DNA of 62,858 nucleotides, filler included, from Reclinomonas americana ATCC 50394 (Eukaryota), in assembly GCA_048213135.1 (NCBI GenBank). It is 43 parts of 43 records of this genome, joined end to end, with 100 filler letters (N's around TTAATTAATTAA, not from the genome) between each part and the next. Parts side by side here need not be neighbours in the genome. Positions count along the whole stretch, not along the records: positions 60,051 to 61,405 come from AFZH01025765.1; 42 more parts are not named here. One strand, given 5' to 3'. The translations under genes and the position numbers were made by a program. The notes under the pieces are model-generated. The model saw nothing but the letters and a program-made list of their open reading frames with translations. It did not search any database and was not told where the DNA came from. How positions within the stretch are numbered: position 1 is the stretch's first letter; every line of letters begins with the position of its first letter. Shown one piece after another: positions 33,788 to 62,858 of the stretch.

Positions 33788-34082
33788 AGTGATTGCATCC
33801 GTAAATAACAAAGGTTTAGACTTTTGCAATAGTGAAGAGTTTACAGTTGATAAATTTGATAATGGAATGATTACTATCACGGACGGAGATAGATATATTG
33901 ACATTAAGTCAAAGGTGTTTACAAAGATGTTTCACCCTGCTTATTGCATAACCTGCCATCGTTCACAAGGCAGAACGTTTACATGTGATTATTCCATCGT
34001 TGAATGGGATTATATGGATGATATTTGCAAATATGTGGCATTGAGTCGCGCAAGATCATGTAAACAAATTTCAATCTTTTAA
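33788..34082 (+). CDS. SF1B (Pif1/RecD-like) helicase C-terminus, partial
   Basis: PAYCITCHRSQGRTF (motif V) and KYVALSRAR (motif VI). Confidence 0.85.
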
Positions 34083-34104
34083 ATTGTATTCATATATTAT
34101 TAAT

Positions 34105-35151
34105 ATGACTACTTTAGATAGTATATATGTAAAGTTCAATTATCCGGCCAGTGCAAAGCTTTATAAGTTGGCAAAGGCTGAAGGGCTAACCGTAACTATG
34201 AAAGAAGTGAAAGATTTCTTATTAAATAAAGAAGGTGCACAAATACATACTCGAAAGTTAAAGAAGGTAGAAAATCCTATTAGAACGGTAACTAAACAAA
34301 TGTCTTATCAAATGGATTTATTAGATATGACCAAGTTTAGCACCAAAAATAAAGGATTCAAATGGATTCTTATCGTGGTGGATATATTTGATAGGAAAGC
34401 TTGTGCAGATGCCTTGAAATCTAAATCACCAAATGATGTATTAGAAGGTATCAAGAAATGTTTTAATTATTTGGGCAAACCAAAGGATGTTACATCAGAT
34501 GATGGTGCTGAATGGAAAGGCGCAGTGAAAACATATTTAGAGAGTGAGAAAATAAGTCATAGGACTGCAGATGTTGGCGATCATAATGTATTAGGTATAA
34601 TTGATAGGTTTAGTAAAACATTAAAATCTATTATATATAAAAGGTTCTCTCACAATGATAATGTTGATTGGGTGCCAACATTAGATGAAACAATAAAGGC
34701 ATATAATGCGACGCCACATAGTTCATTAAATGATAGAAGTCCTAATGAAGCGGAAAAGTATTCATTTGACACGGCCATGTATCAGTATAGAAAAATACAA
34801 GAAATCGAGAAAAAGAATGAAAAGAAAAAAGATAAAATAAATGTTGGTGATAATGTTAGATATAAGTTAAAGAAGACAACATTTTCAAAAGGATATGAAC
34901 AACAATGGTCAAATACTATTCATAAAATAATTAGTAAGAATGGACAAAATTATGAATTAGATAATGGTATGTCATTAAGGGCACAAAGTTTATTGTTAGC
35001 TGGAAGTATGCCACAGCAAACACCAGTTATTAAACCTGTTGAAGTAAAGCCAAAGAAGGCGATAGTTCAAATAGATGAAGCAAAGAAACAATTACAAAGT
35101 GAAAGAAGGAAAAAGAAAGAAGATAGACCATTAACCCAGATTATTGAAGGT
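34105..35151 (+). CDS. Retroviral-like (rve) integrase of Polinton type, 3' partial
   Basis: YQMDLLDM, GFKWILIVVDIF, VTSDDGAEW, LGIIDRFSKTLK, YNATPHSSL, VGDNVR...FSKGYEQQWS; N-terminal KLYKLAK...VKDFL. Confidence 0.9.
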
Positions 35152-35580
35152 NNNNNNNNNNNNNNNNNNNNNNNNNNNNNNNNNNNNNNNNNNNNTTAAT
35201 TAATTAANNNNNNNNNNNNNNNNNNNNNNNNNNNNNNNNNNNNNNNNNNNNACACCTCTTCCCTCTTTCCGTCTCTCTCTCTCTCTCTCTCTCTGGTGTT
35301 CATTCTTTGGATCCGCGTAACCACTGGGCACGGCCTGTCAAATACCTACATGACTGAGATCGTAATCGTTATGGCCGCGGAGAATGACTTGTATCGACTC
35401 TCTTCATCGCGCTTTTTGGCACTTGCAATTGCCTCCGTGCGGGGTCAAAGAGAAGGGACTCGCACATTTTTTGATCCCTGTTCCTTGTACTTTTTTCTTC
35501 CTTTACTTTTCCTTTCTTTCTTTCCTGGTTGCGCGCATTTTTTTGGTGCTGACTTGCGTCATTGTTGGGGGAAACTCCAG

Positions 35581-36571
35581 GTGCCTCGGCCACTCCTCGC
35601 ATTTCGGCGCACTCGGCCAACCTGCATCGCGAGGGTCGCGTTGAGGACCGCCTGTATGGTTTGGCACTGGCGGCCAACTCGAAGCGCGAGGCGCTGGTTT
35701 TCAAGCACGAGCACAACACGATTATGGAGCGCGATCCGGTCACTGGTCAGCAGCTGTTCTCGCCGCTGATCAACCCGCGTTCGGCGGCGCTGGTGCGCGA
35801 CAAGCCGGTGGAAGAGGTGTGTGTGTGTTTGTGGACGAGATTTGTGTGCGCCCAGTGATTGATTTCCTCACTCTTCATTGGTGCTGCGTAGGTGCTGTTG
35901 GAAAAGGGCGAAGAGTTGCACACGAAGCGGCAACAGGCGCTGGAGAAGACGGAGAAGCAGCTGCAGGAGCAGGTGATGGCACCTAAAGCCGGACCCATGA
36001 GCCGCCTGCTGGCCGAGCGGATTGAGGACCGCGACCGGTTGCACAAGCCGATTCGAAACTTGAAGGAGCGCTCCGTGCGCAACATTGAGGACACAGAGTC
36101 GCAGACGTACACATTCAAGTTGCGCCGCAATCCATCTACTCCTCCCTTTTATCTATTTTCTTGTGTCTTACCTCCCTGTTTTTTCGCTGCAGGCCGAGCT
36201 TGAACCCGACGTCTGTGCAAATCGACAAGCAGGTGGTGGGCGTGCACAACGACCCCGACGCCCGCATGAGTCGGCTAGTGCGCAAGGAGCAAGAGAAGAA
36301 CCAGTGGCGCACCCTGCAGCAGCAGGAGCGGTTACGGCTCGAGCTGGAGGAGTGCACCTTCACTCCGAACCGTGGTGGCGCCTCGGGCGACGCCTCGTTC
36401 CAGGGCGCACCGCAGTCGCCGGCTTCGCAGAGCAGCGCCAGCCGCTCCTCGTCGACTCCGCGGCGGCGGTTCTCGGCCGAGTTTGTGGAGCGCAACTTGG
36501 AGTGGGCGCGCCGCGTCAACAGCCGTGTCGAGTTGGAGCGCCTCGAGCAGGCCAGGAAAGCGCAAGAAGAG
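35581..36571 (+). CDS. Protist coiled-coil protein with repeated TFxP motifs, multi-exon, partial
   Basis: QQLFSPLINPRS, TYTFK|PSLNPTS, EECTFTPN and VEDRLY. Confidence 0.55.
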
Positions 36572-39633: not shown

Positions 39634-40993
39634 TTGCAGTACAAACGAAGTCGGGTCGACTGACGATGCTATCACAGCAGAGAACTGCTTGTTGGCACCA
39701 GTCAACTCGTAATATGCGCCTTGTCCCCGATACTGCAGGCAAACTCGGTACAGTGCTCCACTGCCGATAGCTGGCAACTGGACGACCAGGTCAGCGCCGG
39801 ATAGCGCATTCATAGATGTCGCTAAACTTGGAGCGCTGTTGGCGATGTCCGCACAAACCGAGTTCTGGTCGGTCATCAACCGCAATCGTACTCGGTCTGT
39901 CGAATCCAGATTGCTGCCAGAGATCGTCAACACTAGTCCAGCTGCCAGAGGTGCAGTGGCGCCGAGAGGGCGAACGGTGGTGGCATAGACGAAACCGAGA
40001 GTGTTGGTGACTCCGGCAGTTAGCCATGTTGCTTCCGCTGCGCTCGTCCGAACACACACCGTTCGCGTGCCCGTGGCGCCGACTGCGTTCACCGTAATCA
40101 CGGCGGTCGAGTCCGACACGACGCTGATGGCTGTTACAGAAATTGCGTTGGTGTTGCCAGTGCACGATCCAGATACAATCTTTGCCTGCAACGTACTGCT
40201 GACAAACACAAAACCGTTTCCAGTCACAGTGACAGTGGCAGTAGAAGCCGTAGTGATGGCAGACGGACTGAACGAAGTCGCTCCAACAGCAGCCAGCGTC
40301 TGACCGCCGATGACACCAACTGCTGCCGCCGCCGATGAATTGTTGCCGGGGCGCAAGCACAGCCCAAAGTTACGGCCAGTTGTGTCCGACGCAGTGACGT
40401 TGGTGACTACTTGCGTATCATACACCTGCACTGTTGGTGTCGAAAAGACTAGCTGCGTCACCGGCGAACCAGCACACGTGTCTCCTTCCGCGACTGCGTA
40501 AAATCTGTCTGCAGCGCTGAGACCGCTTCCGGTTACTGTGAGTACCGCAGTCGTCGAAGTCGCTTGGAATGCGCTTGGTGCTGCGTTGGTGGCTGATACA
40601 ACTGAGAACACGTTCGCAGACGAGTTGGCCAGGGGATAGAACGACCCTGAGCCAGCGTACTGGATACACACAAGATACCGTCTTCCACTTGTGATCGCAA
40701 CAGGGATCTGAACTGTCGATTGGCTTCCAGTGGACGCAACAGTGGAACATGTGATAGAAGCAACACCGTTGGGATTGGCACACGCCAGACTGCTGTTGGC
40801 GTCCAACGGTACCAACTTCACAACATCAGCTGCCGACAGTTGCTGGCCAGAGAGTGTCAATCTCGTGAATGCTGGAGTCGACAAAGGAAGTCCGGTAGGC
40901 GACACTGACTGAGCCCCGACAATTGACAAACCCTGCGGGTTTCCAACAACCAACCATGTGGTTTCCATGCTAGTGGCTCTACCACACACCGTG
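39634..40993 (-). CDS. Giant repetitive surface protein with ~105-aa Cys-paired Ig/IPT-like domains, copy A, partial
   Basis: Intronless open frame; modules (S/A)P....LT(V/I)(T/S)G..L...D....C...(Y/F).(V/L)C; N-glycosylation sequons. Confidence 0.75.
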
Positions 40994-41093: not shown

Positions 41094-42436
<1,343 letters not shown>

Positions 42437-42553
42437 GTCGTCGTCGTCGTCGTNNNNNNNNNNNNNNNNNNNNNNNNNNNNNNNNNNNNNNNNNNNNTTA
42501 ATTAATTAANNNNNNNNNNNNNNNNNNNNNNNNNNNNNNNNNNNNNNNNNNNN

Positions 42554-43913
42554 CTGCAGTACAAACGAAGTCGGGTCGACTGACGATGCTATCACAGCAG
42601 AGAACTGCTTGTTGGCACCAGTCAACTCGTAATATGCGCCTTGTCCCCGATACTGCAGGCAAACTCGGTACAGTGCTCCACTGCCGATAGCTGGCAACTG
42701 GACGACCAGGTCAGCGCCGGATAGCGCATTCATAGATGTCGCTAAACTTGGAGCGCTGTTGGCGATGTCCGCACAAACCGAGTTCTGATCGGTCATCAAC
42801 CGCAATCGTACTCGGTCTGTCGAATCCAGATTGCTGCCAGAGATCGTCAACACTAGGCCTGCTGCCAGAGGTGCAGTGGCGCCGAGAGGGCGCACGGTGG
42901 TGGCATAGACGAAACCGAGAGTGTTGGTGACTCCGGCAGTGAGCCATGTTGCTTCCGCTGCGCTCGTCCGAACACACACCGTTCGCGTGCCCGTGGCGCC
43001 GACAGCGTTCACCGTAATTACAGCGGTCGAGTCCGACACGACGCTGATGGCTGTTACAGAAATTGCGTTGGTGTTGCCAGTGCACGATCCAGATACAATC
43101 TTTGCCTGCAACGTACTGCTGACAAACACAAATCCGTTTCCAGTCACAGTGACAGTGGCAGTAGTAGCCGTAGTGATGGCAGACGGACTGAACGAAGTCG
43201 CTCCAACAGCAGCCAGCGTCTGACCGCCGATGACACCAACTGCTGCCGCCGCCGACGAATTGTTGCCGGGGCGCAAGCACAGCCCAAAGTTACGGCCAGT
43301 TGTGTCCGACGCAGTGACGTTGGTGATTACTTGCGTATCGTACACCTGCACTGTTGGTGTCGAAAAAACTAGCTGCGTCACCGGCGAACCAGCACACGTG
43401 TCTCCGTCTGCGACTGCGTAAAATCTGTCTGCAGCGCTGAGACCGCTTCCGGTTACTGTTAGTACCGCTGTCGTCGAGGTCGCTTGGAATGCGCTTGGTG
43501 CTGCGTTGGTGGCTGACACAACTGAGAACACGTTCGCAGACGAGTTGGCCAGAGGATAGAACGACCCTGAGCCAGCGTACTGGATACACACAAGATACCG
43601 TCGTCCACTTGTGATCGCAACAGGGATCTGAACTGTCGATTGGCTTCCAGTGGACGCAACAGTGGAACAAGTGATTGAAGCAACACCGTTGGGATTGGCA
43701 CACGCCAGACTGCTGTTGGCGTCCAACGGCACCAACTTCACAACATCAGCTGCCGACAGTTGCTGGCCAGAGAGTGTCAATCTCGTGAATGCTGGAGTCG
43801 ACACAGGAAGTCCGGTGGGCGACACTGACTGAGCCCCGACAATTGACAAACCCTGCGGATTTCCAACAACCAACCAAGTGGTTTCCGTGCTTGTGGCTCT
43901 ACCACACACCGTT
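42554..43913 (-). CDS. Giant repetitive surface protein, copy B (near-identical to 39634-40993)
   Basis: Same length and boundaries; about 33 substitutions by manual comparison, 5 of them non-synonymous. Confidence 0.75.
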
Positions 43914-49852: not shown

Positions 49853-51210
49853 CACAGAGTGAGCTGGCAAGCCAACAGTCACCACGTACTTGTGCGTGGC
49901 GAGGGGTTCACAGGAAGCAAGATGTACTGTGATATTCGTGTCGTGCGTGGTCAGAGCGGCGGTGCTGTGAGCAGTGCACGCGTCCTGTCGTCGCGGTACA
50001 TGGCATGTGTTGTTGGCGCGGCTGTGGATGTGGGTGAAGAGTGGGAGATTGGCGCGTCTCACAGTGGTGTTGAGAGCAGCGTCAGCGGCGGTCGACTGGA
50101 TCGGCCCGGGGCCGTTTGGCCTGTTGGCGTTGTACCGCAGTATGTGGCAGCAGTGGTGGGCGACAATGTGCACGTTGTGCTTGGCAGCGGCACCGATGTG
50201 GACAGTGCCGAGATCGGGTGGTGTCGGTTTGGAGACGAGTGTACACGGTCGGCACTGTTGTGAGCAGTGGCGAGATTGCATGTGCGGTGCCTGGGTTGCG
50301 AGCAGGCGGCGGTGTGTTGGTTGAGGTTGGCCTTGGCGGGTACGATGTTGCAGGTAGTCGCATCAATGTGGGGGTCGGCACTGTGGTGCAACTGAATGTG
50401 CAAGTGGGCAACATGACGGAGAGCTGGAGTGCGGCGCATTTGCGTCCGAGTCCGACGCGCGTTCTTGCCGAGGGCGGTTCACGGATTGCGGCGACGACTG
50501 GTGGCGTTTCAACGAGTGGTGTGGTTGACTTTGTTGTTGGTGGCAGCTCTGTGGGCGCAGCATGGGGACTTGATAGTGACACTGTTGAATGGGTGTTTAC
50601 GGCGCCGCAGCACAGCGAAGGGTTTGTGCCGATTGAAGTGAGCATGAATGGCCGTTCGTGCAGCGACGGACGCGGCAACGGCGTGGAGTATGTGCGAATG
50701 AGTGAGATGCATCGTGTGCGACCAGGTCGTGGCACGGCGGGGGCGAATGTGTTGCTGGCGGTGGAAGGGGAACACTTTGCACGTGACGAAGATGGCGGTG
50801 TATTCTGCAGCAGCAACGTCGACACGTGGACCAGAAGCAGTGTGAGCGGCAATGTGGGTACTACTGGACGCGGCGGTGGCACGAGTCAGTGGATGAGTGG
50901 CGGTGGTGCTGGCGCAGTGGCTCACCGTGCGCGTGCGGTTTCGAGTCGGATGATGTTCTGTGCGATGGAAGGTGTGCGGTCGAACAGTGCCAGTGTGGGT
51001 GGCAACGATGCAGGCAGCGTGCGACGGAGTGTGCGAGTGAGTGTGAACGGTCAGGAGTACACTGGTGGTGGAGGCGTGGTGTATGAAGAGCGAGCTGTGC
51101 TGCTGGTTGATGGTGTGCGTCCGAGTCGAGTGTCGAGTGACGGTGGGAGTGAAGTGGTGCTAGATGTGCGAGGACTGGATACGGGGGCTTTGACGGATGA
51201 GCTGTCGTGT
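49853..51210 (+). pseudogene. IPT/TIG-repeat surface protein with a 1-nt frameshift near 50238 (pseudogene or read error)
   Basis: IPT motifs VLVRGEGF, WCRFGDE/VYTVGTVVSSGEIACAVP, VPIEVSMNG, VRPGRG...VEGEHF and VRVSVNGQEYT; the frame switches at GGAGACGAGTGTACACG. Confidence 0.7.
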
Positions 51211-59743: not shown

Positions 59744-59840
<97 letters not shown>

Positions 59841-60050
59841 GTCGTCGTGGTGTAGAGGAGAGAGAGAAGACGACGAGACGACGACGACGACGACGACGAC
59901 GTACGTACGTACGGTACGGTACGGTACGGTACGGTACGTCGGTCGGTACGNNNNNNNNNNNNNNNNNNNNNNNNNNNNNNNNNNNNNNNNNNNNTTAATT
60001 AATTAANNNNNNNNNNNNNNNNNNNNNNNNNNNNNNNNNNNNNNNNNNNN

Positions 60051-61405
60051 ACGATCAACGAAGGTATGTTTTGTGTTCTGTTTTTCTCTGCAGACAGGTT
60101 CTTATGCGGCGCATTGCAGTGAATGTTGCACCGACGGACATTTCACTGACGGCGACGACATATACACCGCCGACCACCGCCAATCTTGTGATTGGTAGCC
60201 TGTCGACGACCGATGCCAACTCGGCGCAGACGTTCACGTACACGATTGTGGGTGGAGCGAATGCGGCCATGTTCAACATCTCTGGTGCCCAGCTGCGCAT
60301 CACAACTGCGGGTCAGAATGGAACTGGCTTGGTGGTGACTGTGCGATCGACGGACAGTGGCAGTGGATCGCTGTTCTTTGACAAGACATTCACAATCAAC
60401 GAAGGTGTGTTGTTGCAGGCAATTCACTGGTGATTTTAGCTCGTCGTGTGTCTCACGCACGTCTCCTGTACAGTGAATGTTGCGCCGACGGACGTTGTGC
60501 TTTCGTCTGTGACGTACTTGCCGCCGACCACGGCCAATGTGGCCGTCGGTTCGCTTTCCACCGTGGACGCGAATTCATGCCAAACGTACACGTACACGAT
60601 TGTGGGTGGAGCGAATGCAGCCATGTTCAACATCTCTGGCGCCCAGCTGCGCATCACGACAGCCGGGCAGAATGGAACTGGCTTGGTTGTGATTGTGCGA
60701 TCGACGGACAGCGGCAGTGGATCGCTGTTCTTTGATAAGACCTTCACGATCAACGAAGGTGTGTGCTTGCAGATCTATGTTGTGTGCATGTGCTTGTCCA
60801 CTCATCGTCGATATTTGCAATTGCAGCCAATGTCGTACCCACGGACATCACAATGTCGATCGCGGCATACACGCCGCCGTCCACATCTAATATGGTTGTT
60901 GGCAGGCTGTCGACGACTGATGCCAATTCATGCCAGACGTACACGTACTCAATTGTGGGCGGAGCGAATGCGGCCGTGTTCAACATTTCTGGCGACCAAC
61001 TGCGCATCACTGCGGCTGGGCAGACGGGCAATGGACTGGTGGTTATTGTGCGCACCACCGATAGTGGCAGCGGGTCGTTGTTCTTTGACAAGACGCTTGT
61101 CATTGACGAAGGTGCGGAGCAAGATAGTTTGATTGAGCTGTTGTTGCGTTCGGCGACTTATCAAGCGTTGCGAATGACCCACAGCCAACGTCCCTCCGTC
61201 GGACATTGCGCTGTCGGCGACAATGTACACGCCGCCGACCACCGCCAATGTCGTGGTCGGCGCTCTGTCGACAACCGATGCCAACGCGAGCCAGTCGTTC
61301 ACGTACTCGATTGTGGGTGGAGCGAATGCGGCCATGTTCAACATCTCTGGCGCTCAGCTGCGCATCACGACAGCCGGTCAGAATGGAACTGGCTTGGTGG
61401 TAATT
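60051..61405 (+). CDS. Cadherin-like repeat protein, one 95-aa domain per 285-nt phase-1 exon, partial
   Basis: Exons 60120-60404, 60474-60758, 60827-61111 and 61185 onward; each NVAPTDI.L...VG.LST.DAN..QT(F/Y)TY.IVGGANAA.FNISG.QLRIT...VR(S/T)TDSGSGSLFFDKT..I(N/D)E. Confidence 0.85.
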
Positions 61406-61505
61406 NNNNNNNNNNNNNNNNNNNNNNNNNNNNNNNNNNNNNNNNNNNNTTAATTAATTAANNNNNNNNNNNNNNNNNNNNNNNNNNNNNNNNNNNNNNN
61501 NNNNN

Positions 61506-61975
61506 GCTGCAGAAGGCCCAACTTGAGTGCAAGCTGAACAAAACCAAGGAACGCAAGCAGCAGCTGAAGGCCGAACTTCTTGAGCAACGTCAGCAGGCAG
61601 AGATGCGCGAGAAGCAGCTCATGGCCGCAACCTTCGAGCTCAAGCTGAAACCCGAGGTCCGCGAGGTGAAACTGCAGATGCTGCTGGTTTGTTGCAATTG
61701 GCTGTGCTTTGCACATGGGGTCAAACTGTGCACTGATCGAATCGCTGCAGTGCTCGGCGCTGCACGAGCGGATCGAGGACATTGTGAAGTGGATAGGCAT
61801 CCGTCGCCTCGAGATGGAGGAGATGAAGGCGTTTTTTCGCCAAATATCGCCGGCGCAGCGCGCGGTCGAGGATTTGAAGTTCAAGCGGCATTTTTCGGAG
61901 ATGTGCGACTACGAGACCATGTTGTCTGCTCTGCGCTCCCGGGTCGACCGACTCACTTCTTCCTTTCAGTACTGA
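61506..61975 (+). CDS. Coiled-coil protein, 3' exons
   Basis: LQKAQLECKLNKTKERKQQLKAELLEQ...|CSALHERIEDIVKWIG...LTSSFQY*. Confidence 0.45.
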
Positions 61976-62120
61976 GTGGCGCGCGCTTGATCGTATCCAC
62001 CTCGGCCTTTTCTCTCGATTGCTGTCTGTTCTTCTCGTTGCGATTGGACGACATGTAAGCGTTTGCGTTAATGTAGTTGAGATTGATATCCATCATCGTC
62101 TACAGTTTTCTCTCCCCTTC

Positions 62121-62437: not shown

Positions 62438-62858
62438 GTTGCGTGAATGCAAGAGGGGGGGAGAGGAGGGAAGAGGGGAGAGAAGGGGGAGAGGGGGCAG
62501 AGGGAAAGGGGGAGGGAGAGTCTTGTGCAATCTCTCTTCTCTTCGAAGCCTGTTCTTCTCTCTCTGCGTTCTTCCTTATCTCTCCTCTCTCACTGCTCCT
62601 TCCCCTCTCTCTCTTCTCTTCTTCTTCTTCTCCTTCTTCTTCGTCGTCTTCTTCTTCTTCGTCTTCGTCGTCTTCTTCTTCTTCTTCTTCTTCTTGTTTT
62701 TCTTCTTGTTCTTCTCTTTCGTGATCTGCTTGTTCTTCTCCTTGTTCTACTTGTTCTTCTCCTTCTTCTTTTTCTTCTTTTTCTTCTTCTTCTTGTTCTT
62801 CTTCTTGCTCTTGATCTTCTTCTTCTTCTTCTTCTTCTTCTTCTTCTCCTCTCCTCTC

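What the first reader, a model, noticed from the sequence alone, without database searches (positions are those of the whole stretch)
60051..61405. Bacterial-type cadherin domains amplified as exact one-exon modules in a protist
Seen: at least five consecutive repeats; three complete exons are exactly 285 nt, all phase 1-1, separated by dissimilar 56-73 nt introns. The C-terminal halves of the exons differ mostly at synonymous sites, and the domains carry N-glycosylation sequons (NIS, NGT). Established, from memory: N.APTDI.LS...VG.LST.D....TFTY.L....F.I.G..L...VR.TD.GG..F.K.F.I is the cadherin repeat of cyanobacterial/planctomycete adhesins, not the metazoan type. The Ca-binding xEN and DxE motifs are replaced here (PPT, GQN). 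Inference: a horizontally acquired domain that gained a boundary intron and expanded by exon duplication into a possibly Ca-independent adhesin, convergent with animal exon shuffling.
Basis: partly seen in the sequence, partly recalled or inferred. Interest (0 to 1): 0.7.

Follow-up and report, generated by a model that had tools for sequence, protein, structure and literature searches.

The report
Bacterial-type cadherin repeats as protist exons
A short unplaced contig from a flagellated protist carries a real, intron-split fragment of a gene made of repeated cadherin-fold domains of bacterial ancestry, one domain per exon, which have lost most calcium-binding residues; it is a neat example of a known kind of event, not a new kind of system.

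Summary
Positions 60051-61405 contain a 13-nt exon tail, three 285-nt exons and a 221-nt truncated exon. They are separated by GT-AG phase-1 introns of 56, 69, 68 and 73 nt. The region is one whole 1,355-bp contig in a chain of unrelated small contigs, so it has no genomic context.

- **Coding:** exons evolve under purifying selection (dN/dS 0.13-0.26), while the introns are essentially unalignable.
- **Domain:** each exon is one domain, 41-49% identical to abundant bacterial cadherin repeats. The window domains themselves fail Pfam Cadherin. The cadherin fold rests on a model built with bacterial alignment rows (pLDDT 92.7; Z up to 10.9 against solved cadherins). A window-only control fold failed.
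- **Calcium motifs:** the xEN and DxE motifs and the linker Glu are lost.
- **Relatives:** the nearest are two large eukaryote-type proteins, one from Euglena longa. They share these losses and form one clade with the window domains (100/99.9), beside a short bacterial subtype.
- **History:** acquisition from bacteria and motif loss therefore predate the amplification seen here.

Splicing, expression, full gene architecture, source organism and adhesive function remain untested. I rate this a new member of a known kind, of moderate interest.

The parts
60051..60063 (+). 3' tail (13 nt) of an upstream repeat exon, encoding ...(T)INE
   Evidence: Identical to the last 13 nt of exon 2. Cut by the contig start next to an artificial linker.
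60064..60119 (+). intron 1, 56 nt, GTATGT...TGCAG, phase 1
   Evidence: Related DNA contigs in runs X2 and X3 diverge just upstream of 60122, with ...CAG|CC ends.
60120..60404 (+). exon 1, 285 nt, one complete cadherin-fold domain (in-frame codons 60122-60403)
   Evidence: HMM positions 1-93, 131.6 bits. Bacterial relatives.
60405..60473 (+). intron 2, 69 nt, GTGTGT...TACAG, phase 1, contains stop codons
   Evidence: Its first ~14 nt resemble intron 3.
60474..60758 (+). exon 2, 285 nt, complete domain (codons 60476-60757); this is the sequence modelled
   Evidence: (pLDDT 92.7), plus 51 and 57 (cadherin fold).
60759..60826 (+). intron 3, 68 nt, GTGTGT...TGCAG, phase 1, shifts the frame
   Evidence: An X3 contig follows exon 2 for about 10 nt into this intron and then diverges.
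60827..61111 (+). exon 3, 285 nt, complete domain (codons 60829-61110), the most diverged copy
   Evidence: (72-75% nt identity to exons 1, 2 and 4).
61112..61184 (+). intron 4, 73 nt, GTGCGG...CACAG, phase 1, shifts the frame
61185..61405 (+). exon 4, first 221 nt of a fifth repeat (codons 61187-61405), cut by the contig end
   Evidence: HMM positions 1-75.

Best explanation
The contig is a fragment of a real nuclear gene of a flagellated protist. The gene encodes a long, probably secreted and N-glycosylated protein built from tandem cadherin-fold beta-sandwich domains of 95 residues.

The domain descends from the abundant bacterial cadherin repeat (consensus NEAPTD...EN...TDxDAG.TFTY...FNISG...DFE...TDQGG). 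It belongs to a small eukaryote-type clade that also holds a 2,199-aa protein on an unnamed 575-kb contig (P0174) and a 2,014-aa Euglena longa transcript product (P0227). That clade had already lost the xEN Glu, the DxE loop and the linker Glu before these lineages diverged. These losses should abolish at least two of the three inter-domain calcium sites of a canonical cadherin linker.

In the window's organism, one repeat unit, carrying a phase-1 intron inside the linker codon, was amplified in tandem as an exon-plus-intron cassette of 341-358 bp. The exons then stayed under purifying selection. Their last ~180 nt were partly homogenised by gene conversion, and the introns drifted until they could no longer be aligned.

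Shown: the anatomy, coding constraint, homology, fold (conditional on the bacterial alignment rows), motif loss and clade. Inferred: splicing, cassette duplication, transfer from bacteria, secretion, and a role as a surface or matrix adhesin or spacer.
For: - **Gene structure.** Four GT-AG introns lie at the same codon position and phase, with stops or frameshifts between exons.
- **Coding constraint.** dN/dS is 0.13-0.26 in all 6 exon pairs, with dS 0.42-1.31. Intron pairs score only z 1.5-3.2 over shuffles.
- **Same boundaries elsewhere.** DNA contigs 85-87% alike in 2 of the 4 runs laid diverge at the exon edges.
- **Short introns are normal here.** An 81-nt GTGAGC...TACAG insert in the dynein contig is skipped by all 5 homologues compared.
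- **Homology.** One search gives 43 hits; every hit that carries an organism name is bacterial (others carry only a functional label or none), at 32-51% identity. One search gives 4,146 representatives at E<=1e-3 and 340 at E<=1e-30.
- **Cadherin family.** 41 of the 46 rows of alignment A4 match PF00028 at E<=0.01. None of the four window rows does, so these are 41 of the 42 bacterial rows. The A4 profile hits solved cadherins: CELSR1 5.7e-33, protocadherins 1e-9 to 1e-13.
- **Fold.** pLDDT 92.7, pTM 0.82, seven strands. 40 of 41 listed Foldseek rows are cadherins, best E 1.7e-3. 50 of 50 listed VIA-align entries are cadherins, Z 8.9-10.9, rmsd 2.1-3.1 A, 83-94 of 94 residues aligned.
- **Linker.** The spliced TINE-V-NVAPTD aligns without gaps to bacterial TIN[ND]-V-NE[AT]PTD.
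- **Nearest relatives.** P0174 scores 96.5 bits and P0227 84.4 bits against the window-domain HMM, with the best bacterial domain at 71.7 bits.
- **Clade.** The 17 eukaryote-type rows separate from 47 others at 100/99.9. The next set out adds 3 bacterial rows of the short 94-aa subtype, at 98/93. The window's 4 rows are together at 87/74.
- **Secretory features.** P0174 has one N-terminal hydrophobic segment. Sequons number 37 against 22.9+-4.3 expected in P0174 and 57 against 22.7+-4.5 in P0227. They have 24-29 Cys against 0-6 in five bacterial homologues.
- **Mosaic identity.** Exons 1 and 2 are 55-75% identical over nt 1-105 and 83-97% over nt 106-285.
Against: - No RNA run holds the stretch, so splicing and expression are unobserved.
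- The contig is 1,355 bp with both ends inside the repeat. The start, the end, any signal peptide or membrane anchor, and the true repeat number are unknown. Collapse or chimerism of a repeat assembly cannot be excluded.
- None of the four window domains passes Pfam Cadherin or any NCBIfam model.
- The confident fold depends on 42 bacterial rows. A control with the 4 window rows alone gave pLDDT 42.7.
- The tree has only 97 columns, its bootstrap had not settled, and it is unrooted. On the tree alone the eukaryote clade could be sister to the bacterial domains rather than derived from them. No metazoan, choanoflagellate or oomycete cadherins were in the tree.
- The window clade has only 87/74 support.
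- The source organism is not identified. The dynein marker is at most 54% identical to anything listed.
- Two metagenome scans found no further copies.
- Whether the P0174 gene has introns could not be checked.
Confidence: 0.7

Rival explanations
1. The domains descend vertically from an ancient eukaryotic cadherin, or reached this lineage from another eukaryote. In that case the resemblance to bacterial repeats reflects slow evolution, or transfer from eukaryote to bacterium.
For: The tree is unrooted, and the 17 eukaryote-type rows form their own clade rather than sitting deep inside a named bacterial group. Cadherins with intact motifs are reported in oomycetes (PMC2926784, passages read). 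Two unnamed contigs (P0029, P0031) carry DxNDxP-type repeats that also hit the query.
Against: The family is very large and spread over many bacterial phyla, while only two eukaryote-type relatives surfaced among 1.84 billion representatives. The clade attaches beside a specific short bacterial subtype at 98/93. The non-repeat part of P0174 carries Big_5, and its remaining matches are mostly bacterial-type (two are named bacterial MAGs, the rest unnamed), carrying Big_9, Cadherin_4, Cadherin_5 and He_PIG at 24-28% identity. The metazoan-centred Pfam model scores the window domains at E>=0.039.
Confidence: 0.12
2. The contig is a decaying pseudogene or a non-functional tandem repeat, and the apparent introns are degenerate spacers that are never spliced.
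For: There is no expression evidence. The contig is an unplaced repeat fragment, and the assembly breaks at both ends.
Against: Three exons keep exactly 285 nt with open frames. dN/dS is 0.13-0.26 in 6 of 6 pairs despite dS up to 1.3. All four spacers keep GT and AG at the same codon phase while the rest of each spacer has diverged beyond alignment. Other copies, 85-87% alike, keep the same boundaries.
Confidence: 0.08
3. The contig comes from a contaminant, either a bacterium or a different eukaryote such as prey or a symbiont, and not from the organism that supplied the other contigs.
For: It is an isolated 1.35-kb contig with no linkage to anything. The domain is bacterial in type.
Against: A bacterial origin is excluded by stops and frameshifts between units that are removed only by GT-AG splicing. 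G+C is 0.51 for the bin 60001-62000, against 0.50-0.60 for most of the window. The 56-73-nt GT-AG introns match the 81-nt homology-validated intron in the dynein contig. A different eukaryote cannot be excluded.
Confidence: 0.08

Closest known systems
Bacterial cadherin-repeat surface proteins, for example 'cadherin domain-containing protein' of Rhodopirellula halodulae (P0005) and the repeats in loci L001-L075
   Same: The same domain family over its full length (query 1-92 over 94-99 residues) at 41-49% identity. They share the NxAPTD start, FNISG, TDxGG, FxK.FTI and the linker register. The arrays are tandem with a period of about 100 residues.
   Different: The bacterial copies keep xEN, DxD, D[FY]E and the NE linker, and they pass PF00028 (41 of 42). 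They are uninterrupted ORFs and have 0-6 Cys. The window copies are 95 residues long, lack these motifs, and are split by an intron at every linker.
P0174 (unnamed 575-kb ENA contig) and P0227 (Euglena longa transcript GGOE01002849.1)
   Same: They share the derived YTPP[ST]T.N motif, the deletion of the DxE loop and a domain length of ~92-95 residues. They form one clade with the window domains at 100/99.9. These are the best single-domain matches.
   Different: Their 8-9 repeats are heterogeneous and pair position by position between the two proteins, which indicates an old array. The window repeats are near-copies of one unit. Identity to the window is only 49-57%. The rest of their architecture (a Cys-rich region, Big_5, and a C-terminal part with VNDAP linkers) cannot be looked for in a 1.35-kb contig.
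Oomycete cadherins (Pythium ultimum, Phytophthora), PMC2926784, passages read
   Same: Cadherin-domain arrays in a protist outside animals and choanoflagellates, with no catenin-binding tail reported.
   Different: Those are described as 'true' cadherins that keep the LDRE and DxND motifs and pass Pfam thresholds. The window domains do neither, and they are closest to bacterial repeats.
Trichomonas vaginalis cadherin-like protein CLP, PMC6520450 (search listing and start of abstract only)
   Same: A protist surface protein with a cadherin-like fold, implicated in adherence.
   Different: From the listing, it was recognised by structure prediction and is linked to calcium binding. It was not compared here by sequence or structure.
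Animal cadherins with calcium-free or partial linkers (protocadherin-15 and cadherin-23 are among the fold matches; the linker property is recalled, not tested here)
   Same: Cadherin-fold domains in series, where some linkers lack canonical calcium ligands.
   Different: In animals these are exceptions within otherwise calcium-rigidified arrays. Here every linker seen lacks the same ligands.
Phase 1-1 exon modules of animal extracellular proteins (exon shuffling; recalled textbook knowledge)
   Same: One domain per symmetric phase 1-1 exon, so units can be duplicated or skipped without breaking the frame.
   Different: This is a tandem amplification within one gene of a non-animal. No shuffling between genes was shown.

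Membership tests
Cadherin domain (Pfam PF00028) | Significant match to the family HMM at or above the gathering score | tested here: not met
   the only hit is on exon 4, at E=0.039 and 14.8 bits against a 28.8-bit cutoff. The other three domains have no hit. In contrast, 41 of the 46 alignment rows match at E<=0.01; by deduction these are 41 of the 42 bacterial rows.
Cadherin domain (Pfam PF00028) | Seven-strand Greek-key beta-sandwich superposable on solved EC domains | tested here: met
   The model has pLDDT 92.7 and seven strands. VIA-align lists 50 of 50 cadherin entries, Z 8.9-10.9, rmsd 2.1-3.1 A. Foldseek lists 40 of 41 cadherin rows, best E 1.7e-3. This is conditional on the bacterial alignment rows: the window-only control gave pLDDT 42.7.
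Cadherin domain (Pfam PF00028) | Calcium-binding motifs xEx/PEN, LDRE/DxE, DxD and the DxNDN linker | tested here: not met
   Alignments, linker: EN becomes PP; the D[FY]E loop is deleted or replaced (GQNGT); DxD becomes DAN; linker [ND]VNE becomes EVNV. Retained: D31, the TD of TDSG, and the linker Asn. Mapping these onto the three canonical calcium sites is recalled, not computed.
Cadherin domain (Pfam PF00028) | Tandem arrays with a period of about 100-110 residues | tested here: met
   95 residues per unit, with 5 consecutive units (3 complete).
Classical and animal-type cadherins | Transmembrane anchor and a cytoplasmic catenin-binding tail | not testable with these tools
   The contig ends inside the repeat array. 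The relative P0174 has no hydrophobic 19-mer other than the one at its N-terminus.
Bacterial cadherin-repeat adhesins | Full-length sequence similarity to the NEAPTD...FNISG...TDQGG repeat | tested here: met
   1,904 domain hits in 188 of 188 proteins with the window-domain HMM. The best bacterial single domain scores 71.7 bits.
Bacterial cadherin-repeat adhesins | Encoded as an uninterrupted prokaryotic ORF | tested here: not met
   Stops and frameshifts between units, with GT-AG phase-1 introns at every linker.
Eukaryote-type clade (P0174, E. longa P0227) | Shared derived characters: YTPP[ST]T.N, loss of the D[FY]E loop, short GG loop | tested here: met
   The clade has 100/99.9 support.
Eukaryote-type clade (P0174, E. 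longa P0227) | Same overall architecture: signal peptide, Cys-rich region, Big_5, C-terminal VNDAP region | not testable with these tools
   Only this contig of the window matches P0174 or P0227 (tblastn). No whole genome is held for the window.

The most novel reading that the evidence does not exclude
A bacterial adhesin repeat captured by an ancestor of euglenid-like protists has been turned, in this lineage, into a symmetric phase 1-1 exon cassette. The cassette expands, contracts and homogenises by unequal crossing-over and gene conversion, and it can be skipped in splicing. The cell would thereby get length-variable, calcium-independent surface rods. This would be an independent, non-animal re-invention of modular exon amplification, built on a horizontally acquired domain.
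Probability: 0.2. Interest if true: 0.7.

Novelty: new member of a known kind. Interest (0 to 1): 0.45.

Why it matters
Cadherin-fold proteins outside animals bear on how eukaryotes obtain adhesion modules. Here the path can be read in some detail. A common bacterial repeat entered a protist lineage, lost most calcium ligands, and gained sequons and cysteines. In one descendant it then became a one-domain-per-exon cassette that amplified in tandem. This gives a concrete case for testing two things: whether intron placement at a linker promotes domain amplification outside animals, and whether a cadherin array can work without calcium-rigidified linkers. The value is limited by the fragment's size, the unknown host, and the lack of expression data.

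Tried and rejected
- **Whole-genome search:** no genome is held for the window.
- **RNA evidence:** no RNA holder is listed. The four runs laid are contigs with no joints, so nothing can be said about splicing or expression.
- **Metagenome scans:** one with the eukaryote-type alignment A2 and one with a degenerate DNA pattern from the conserved exon half. Neither found a relative.
- **Earlier notes of this scan:** none by place or by sequence.
- **Rfam on the whole window:** no family at gathering score, so no RNA marker for the organism.
- **Cluster look-up for P0174, P0227 and four other proteins:** the service is switched off, so the source of P0174 stays unknown.
- **First genome-contig query with A1:** rejected for lack of a conserved stretch. 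It was replaced by the tighter bacterial alignment A3.
- **Organism identification through the dynein fragment:** best hit 54% (a brown alga), so inconclusive.
- **Window-only fold control:** not confident, pLDDT 42.7.
- **Bacterial contamination:** rejected because of the introns.
- **Sequons as a eukaryotic adaptation:** rejected for NIS, which is ancestral. It is kept only for the general sequon excess in P0174 and P0227.
- **Literature:**
  - 'cadherin' + 'Euglena': 54 papers, 15 listed, none on this topic by title.
  - 'cadherin-like' + 'euglenid': 0 papers.
  - A Blastocystis paper flagged holds no 'cadherin' in its current version.
Full report
**What the window is.** The 62,858-base window is not a continuous locus. 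It consists of 43 stretches of 1,353-1,375 bases in falling order of length. Each pair is joined by 44 N, TTAATTAATTAA and 44 N. The finding (60051-61405) is exactly one of these stretches, a whole 1,355-bp contig. Its neighbours are unrelated contigs, so there is no genomic context, and both contig ends fall inside the repeat.

**Anatomy.** The contig holds the following parts:
- a 13-nt exon tail (60051-60063)
- intron 1 (60064-60119, 56 nt)
- exon 1 (60120-60404, 285 nt)
- intron 2 (60405-60473, 69 nt)
- exon 2 (60474-60758, 285 nt)
- intron 3 (60759-60826, 68 nt)
- exon 3 (60827-61111, 285 nt)
- intron 4 (61112-61184, 73 nt)
- 221 nt of exon 4 (61185-61405)

Every intron begins with GT and ends with AG. 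Each lies after the first base of a codon (G|TG = Val or G|CC = Ala). Two introns shift the frame and the in-frame one carries stops, so the exons fall in frames 1, 1, 0 and 1. An uninterrupted bacterial reading is therefore impossible. Tandem Repeats Finder sees period 354, 3.6 copies, score 1042. No other contig of the window carries the domain.

**Is it coding and eukaryotic?** All six exon pairs give dN/dS of 0.13-0.26 with dS of 0.42-1.31. The introns align no better than z 1.5-3.2 over shuffles, and most of that comes from their splice ends.

Identity along the unit is mosaic. Between exons 1 and 2, the first ~105 nt are 55-75% identical and nt 106-285 are 83-97% identical. Identity then falls to 16 of 30 in the first intron bases. 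In the C-terminal halves of exons 1, 2 and 4, changes are 11 synonymous against 1 non-synonymous, 6 against 2, and 5 against 1. This fits partial gene conversion on top of purifying selection.

Short GT-AG introns are normal in this assembly. A dynein heavy-chain contig (41095-42336) has an 81-nt GTGAGC...TACAG insert that all five homologues compared skip.

No RNA run is available. The DNA contigs of two runs that are 85-87% alike stop matching just upstream of 60122, with ...CAG|CC ends, and about 10 nt after 60758. Further copies therefore share the same exon edges, with different introns.

**What the domain is.** Pfam and NCBIfam do not recognise the four window domains. The best Pfam result is PF00028 at E=0.039 and 14.8 bits, against a 28.8-bit cutoff, on exon 4 only.

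Sequence searches are unambiguous, however:
- One search returns 43 long multi-repeat proteins at 32-51% identity. Every hit that carries an organism name is bacterial (Rhodopirellula, Pirellulales, Anaerolineales, Longilinea, Limnohabitans and others).
- The exhaustive search returns 4,146 representatives at E<=1e-3 and 340 at E<=1e-30. They match the whole domain, query 1-92 over about 94-99 residues.
- A scan of one genome per prokaryotic species found 538 relatives of the bacterial consensus. I kept 75 loci from Bacteroidota, Planctomycetota, Verrucomicrobiota, Cyanobacteriota, Chloroflexota, Desulfobacterota, Bacillota and Pseudomonadota.

41 of the 46 rows of alignment A4 match PF00028 at E<=0.01. 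None of the four window rows does, so these are 41 of the 42 bacterial rows. The A4 profile hits solved animal cadherins: CELSR1 at 5.7e-33 and protocadherins at 1e-9 to 1e-13.

With A4 as input, AlphaFold2 gives a seven-strand sandwich at pLDDT 92.7 and pTM 0.82. Foldseek lists 41 rows, of which 40 are cadherins, protocadherins, desmogleins or CELSR and one is the SraP adhesin. The best E is only 1.7e-3, with TM up to 0.73. An independent scan of 48,161 representative chains lists 50 entries, all cadherins, at Z 8.9-10.9, rmsd 2.1-3.1 A and 83-94 of 94 residues aligned. A control fold with the four window rows alone failed (pLDDT 42.7). The fold call therefore rests on the homology to the bacterial rows.

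**Calcium motifs.** Compared with the bacterial consensus, the window domains differ as follows:
- ..EN.. is replaced by ..PP..
- TDxDAG is replaced by TDAN
- the D[FY]E loop is shortened and replaced by AGQNGT
- the spliced linker TIN-E-V-N-V-APTD stands against bacterial TIN-[ND]-V-N-E-[AT]PTD, with no gap

The intron lies inside the Val/Ala codon of this linker. The first Asp of DxD, the Asp of TDSG and the linker Asn are retained.

By my recollection of classical cadherin sites, the lost residues are ligands of sites 1 and 2, and site 3 might partly survive. I did not compute this.

The NIS sequon is the bacterial FNISG motif. NGT is new and lies in the replaced loop.

**Nearest relatives.** When the window-domain HMM is run over 188 retrieved proteins, two single domains stand out: P0174 residues 223-314 (96.5 bits) and P0227 residues 75-166 (84.4 bits). 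The best bacterial domain scores 71.7 bits. Both share YTPPSTAN, lack D[FY]E and are 92 residues long.

P0174 is 2,199 aa and comes from an unnamed 575-kb ENA contig. P0227 is 2,014 aa. Its source label carries the prefix GGOE01, which a passage in 10.1101/573709 assigns to Euglena longa.

The two are 43% identical over the non-repeat region, and only these two appeared as close relatives there. The remaining ten hits are mostly bacterial-type (two are named bacterial MAGs, the rest unnamed). They carry Big_9, Cadherin_4, Cadherin_5 or He_PIG domains and are 24-28% identical. Pfam finds only Big_5 in both.

P0174 has a single hydrophobic segment, at its N-terminus. Both proteins are enriched in N-x-S/T: 37 against 22.9+-4.3 expected in P0174, and 57 against 22.7+-4.5 in P0227. 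They have 24-29 Cys. Five bacterial homologues have 0-6 Cys and a smaller sequon excess or none, the largest being P0187 at 35 against 24.8+-4.2.

**Tree.** I built a domain tree of 64 rows. It holds 4 window rows, 8 from P0174, 5 from P0227, 2 DxNDxP-type rows from unnamed contigs, and 45 bacterial-type rows. One long row, P0043_119_219, was left out. For bacterial proteins other than those kept whole, only the two best domains were used. The method was IQ-TREE with LG+C20 on 97 columns. The bootstrap had not fully settled.

- The 17 eukaryote-type rows lie on one side of a branch with support 100/99.9.
- The next starred set out adds three bacterial rows of a short 94-residue subtype, from P0027 and P0187, at 98/93. 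For P0027, one search lists PF13573 together with PF00028.
- The four window rows are together at 87/74.
- P0174 and P0227 domains pair position by position.

The array in P0174 and P0227 is therefore old and heterogeneous. The window's repeats are a younger amplification of one unit.

The tree is unrooted and lacks animal, choanoflagellate and oomycete cadherins. Transfer from bacteria is thus inferred from three things: distribution, attachment beside a particular bacterial subtype, and the bacterial-type character of the rest of P0174.

**Organism.** A dynein heavy-chain fragment shows a flagellated eukaryote, but its best listed match is 54% identical (a brown alga). Perkinsus, dinoflagellates and Pythium follow at 45-49%. 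Rfam found nothing. The kinship of this gene with a Euglena longa protein suggests a euglenozoan-related source, but that is a lead and not a result.

**Mechanism proposed.**
- Shown: a tandem array of at least five cadherin-fold units under selection, one per symmetric phase 1-1 exon, lacking most calcium ligands.
- Inferred: an exon-plus-intron cassette of 341-358 bp was duplicated in tandem. The introns, identical at birth, have since drifted, which fits dS near or above 0.6 for most pairs. Gene conversion keeps the last 180 nt of several exons alike. The product is a secreted, glycosylated rod or spacer that acts in adhesion or in the surface matrix without calcium-stiffened linkers.

**Comparison and novelty.** Cadherin-like repeats are common in bacteria. 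Cadherin domains have been reported in oomycetes, with intact LDRE and DxND motifs (PMC2926784, passages read). A cadherin-like adhesin has been reported in Trichomonas (PMC6520450, listing only). I found no paper on cadherin-like proteins in euglenids.

This is a new member of a known kind. Its instructive features are linker-phase introns and a cassette amplification on a domain of bacterial ancestry. The small fragment, the unknown host and the missing expression data hold the score down.

Noticed in passing
window 1-62858: The window is a chain of 43 small contigs (1,353-1,375 bp) in falling order of length, joined by N44-TTAATTAATTAA-N44 linkers. Any finding that spans a linker, or that uses neighbouring genes as context, would be an artefact.
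   Followed up: yes
window 39634-40993 and 42554-43913; also 50074-51210: Two contigs each carry a 453-aa open frame with an IPT/TIG domain at the same residues (345-427; E 7e-8 and 1e-7). A third has TIG at residues 126-197. The small-contig bin seems enriched for repeated extracellular-domain genes that the assembler could not place.
   Followed up: partly
window 41095-42336: An axonemal-type dynein heavy-chain fragment (AAA_lid, AAA_8) with an 81-nt GT-AG intron that five homologues skip. The contig ends in a long (TG)n run.
   Followed up: yes
window 34045-35151: An open frame with a retroviral-type integrase core (rve, E 2e-10) in a low-G+C stretch (0.385 for 34001-36000). This is probably a retrotransposon fragment.
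   Followed up: no
window 11781-13148 (minus strand): A 456-aa open frame filling a whole contig, with a marginal FapA beta-solenoid match (32.2 bits against a cutoff of 31).
   Followed up: no
window 61506-61975: The contig after the finding encodes the C-terminal part of a coiled-coil-looking protein. By eye, it has a 64-nt GTTTGT...TGCAG intron at 61687-61750. This was not validated by homology.
   Followed up: no
window 59745-59950, 42390-42453, 62612-62847: Contig ends are often microsatellites, such as (TG)47, (GAC)11, (GTACG)11 and (TCT)79. This probably explains why the assembly breaks there.
   Followed up: no
loci L001-L075: The bacterial repeat is 66-90% identical to one consensus across phyla as distant as Bacteroidota, Planctomycetota, Cyanobacteriota and Desulfobacterota. 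This suggests frequent transfer of the repeat among bacteria.
   Followed up: partly
P0029 and P0031 (unnamed ENA contigs of 171 kb and 635 kb): Two 256-aa proteins with DVNERP/DANDKP linkers (animal-style DxNDxP) also hit the window domain, at 2.9e-13 and 4.0e-12. They sit on a long branch among the bacterial rows. Their origin is unknown.
   Followed up: partly
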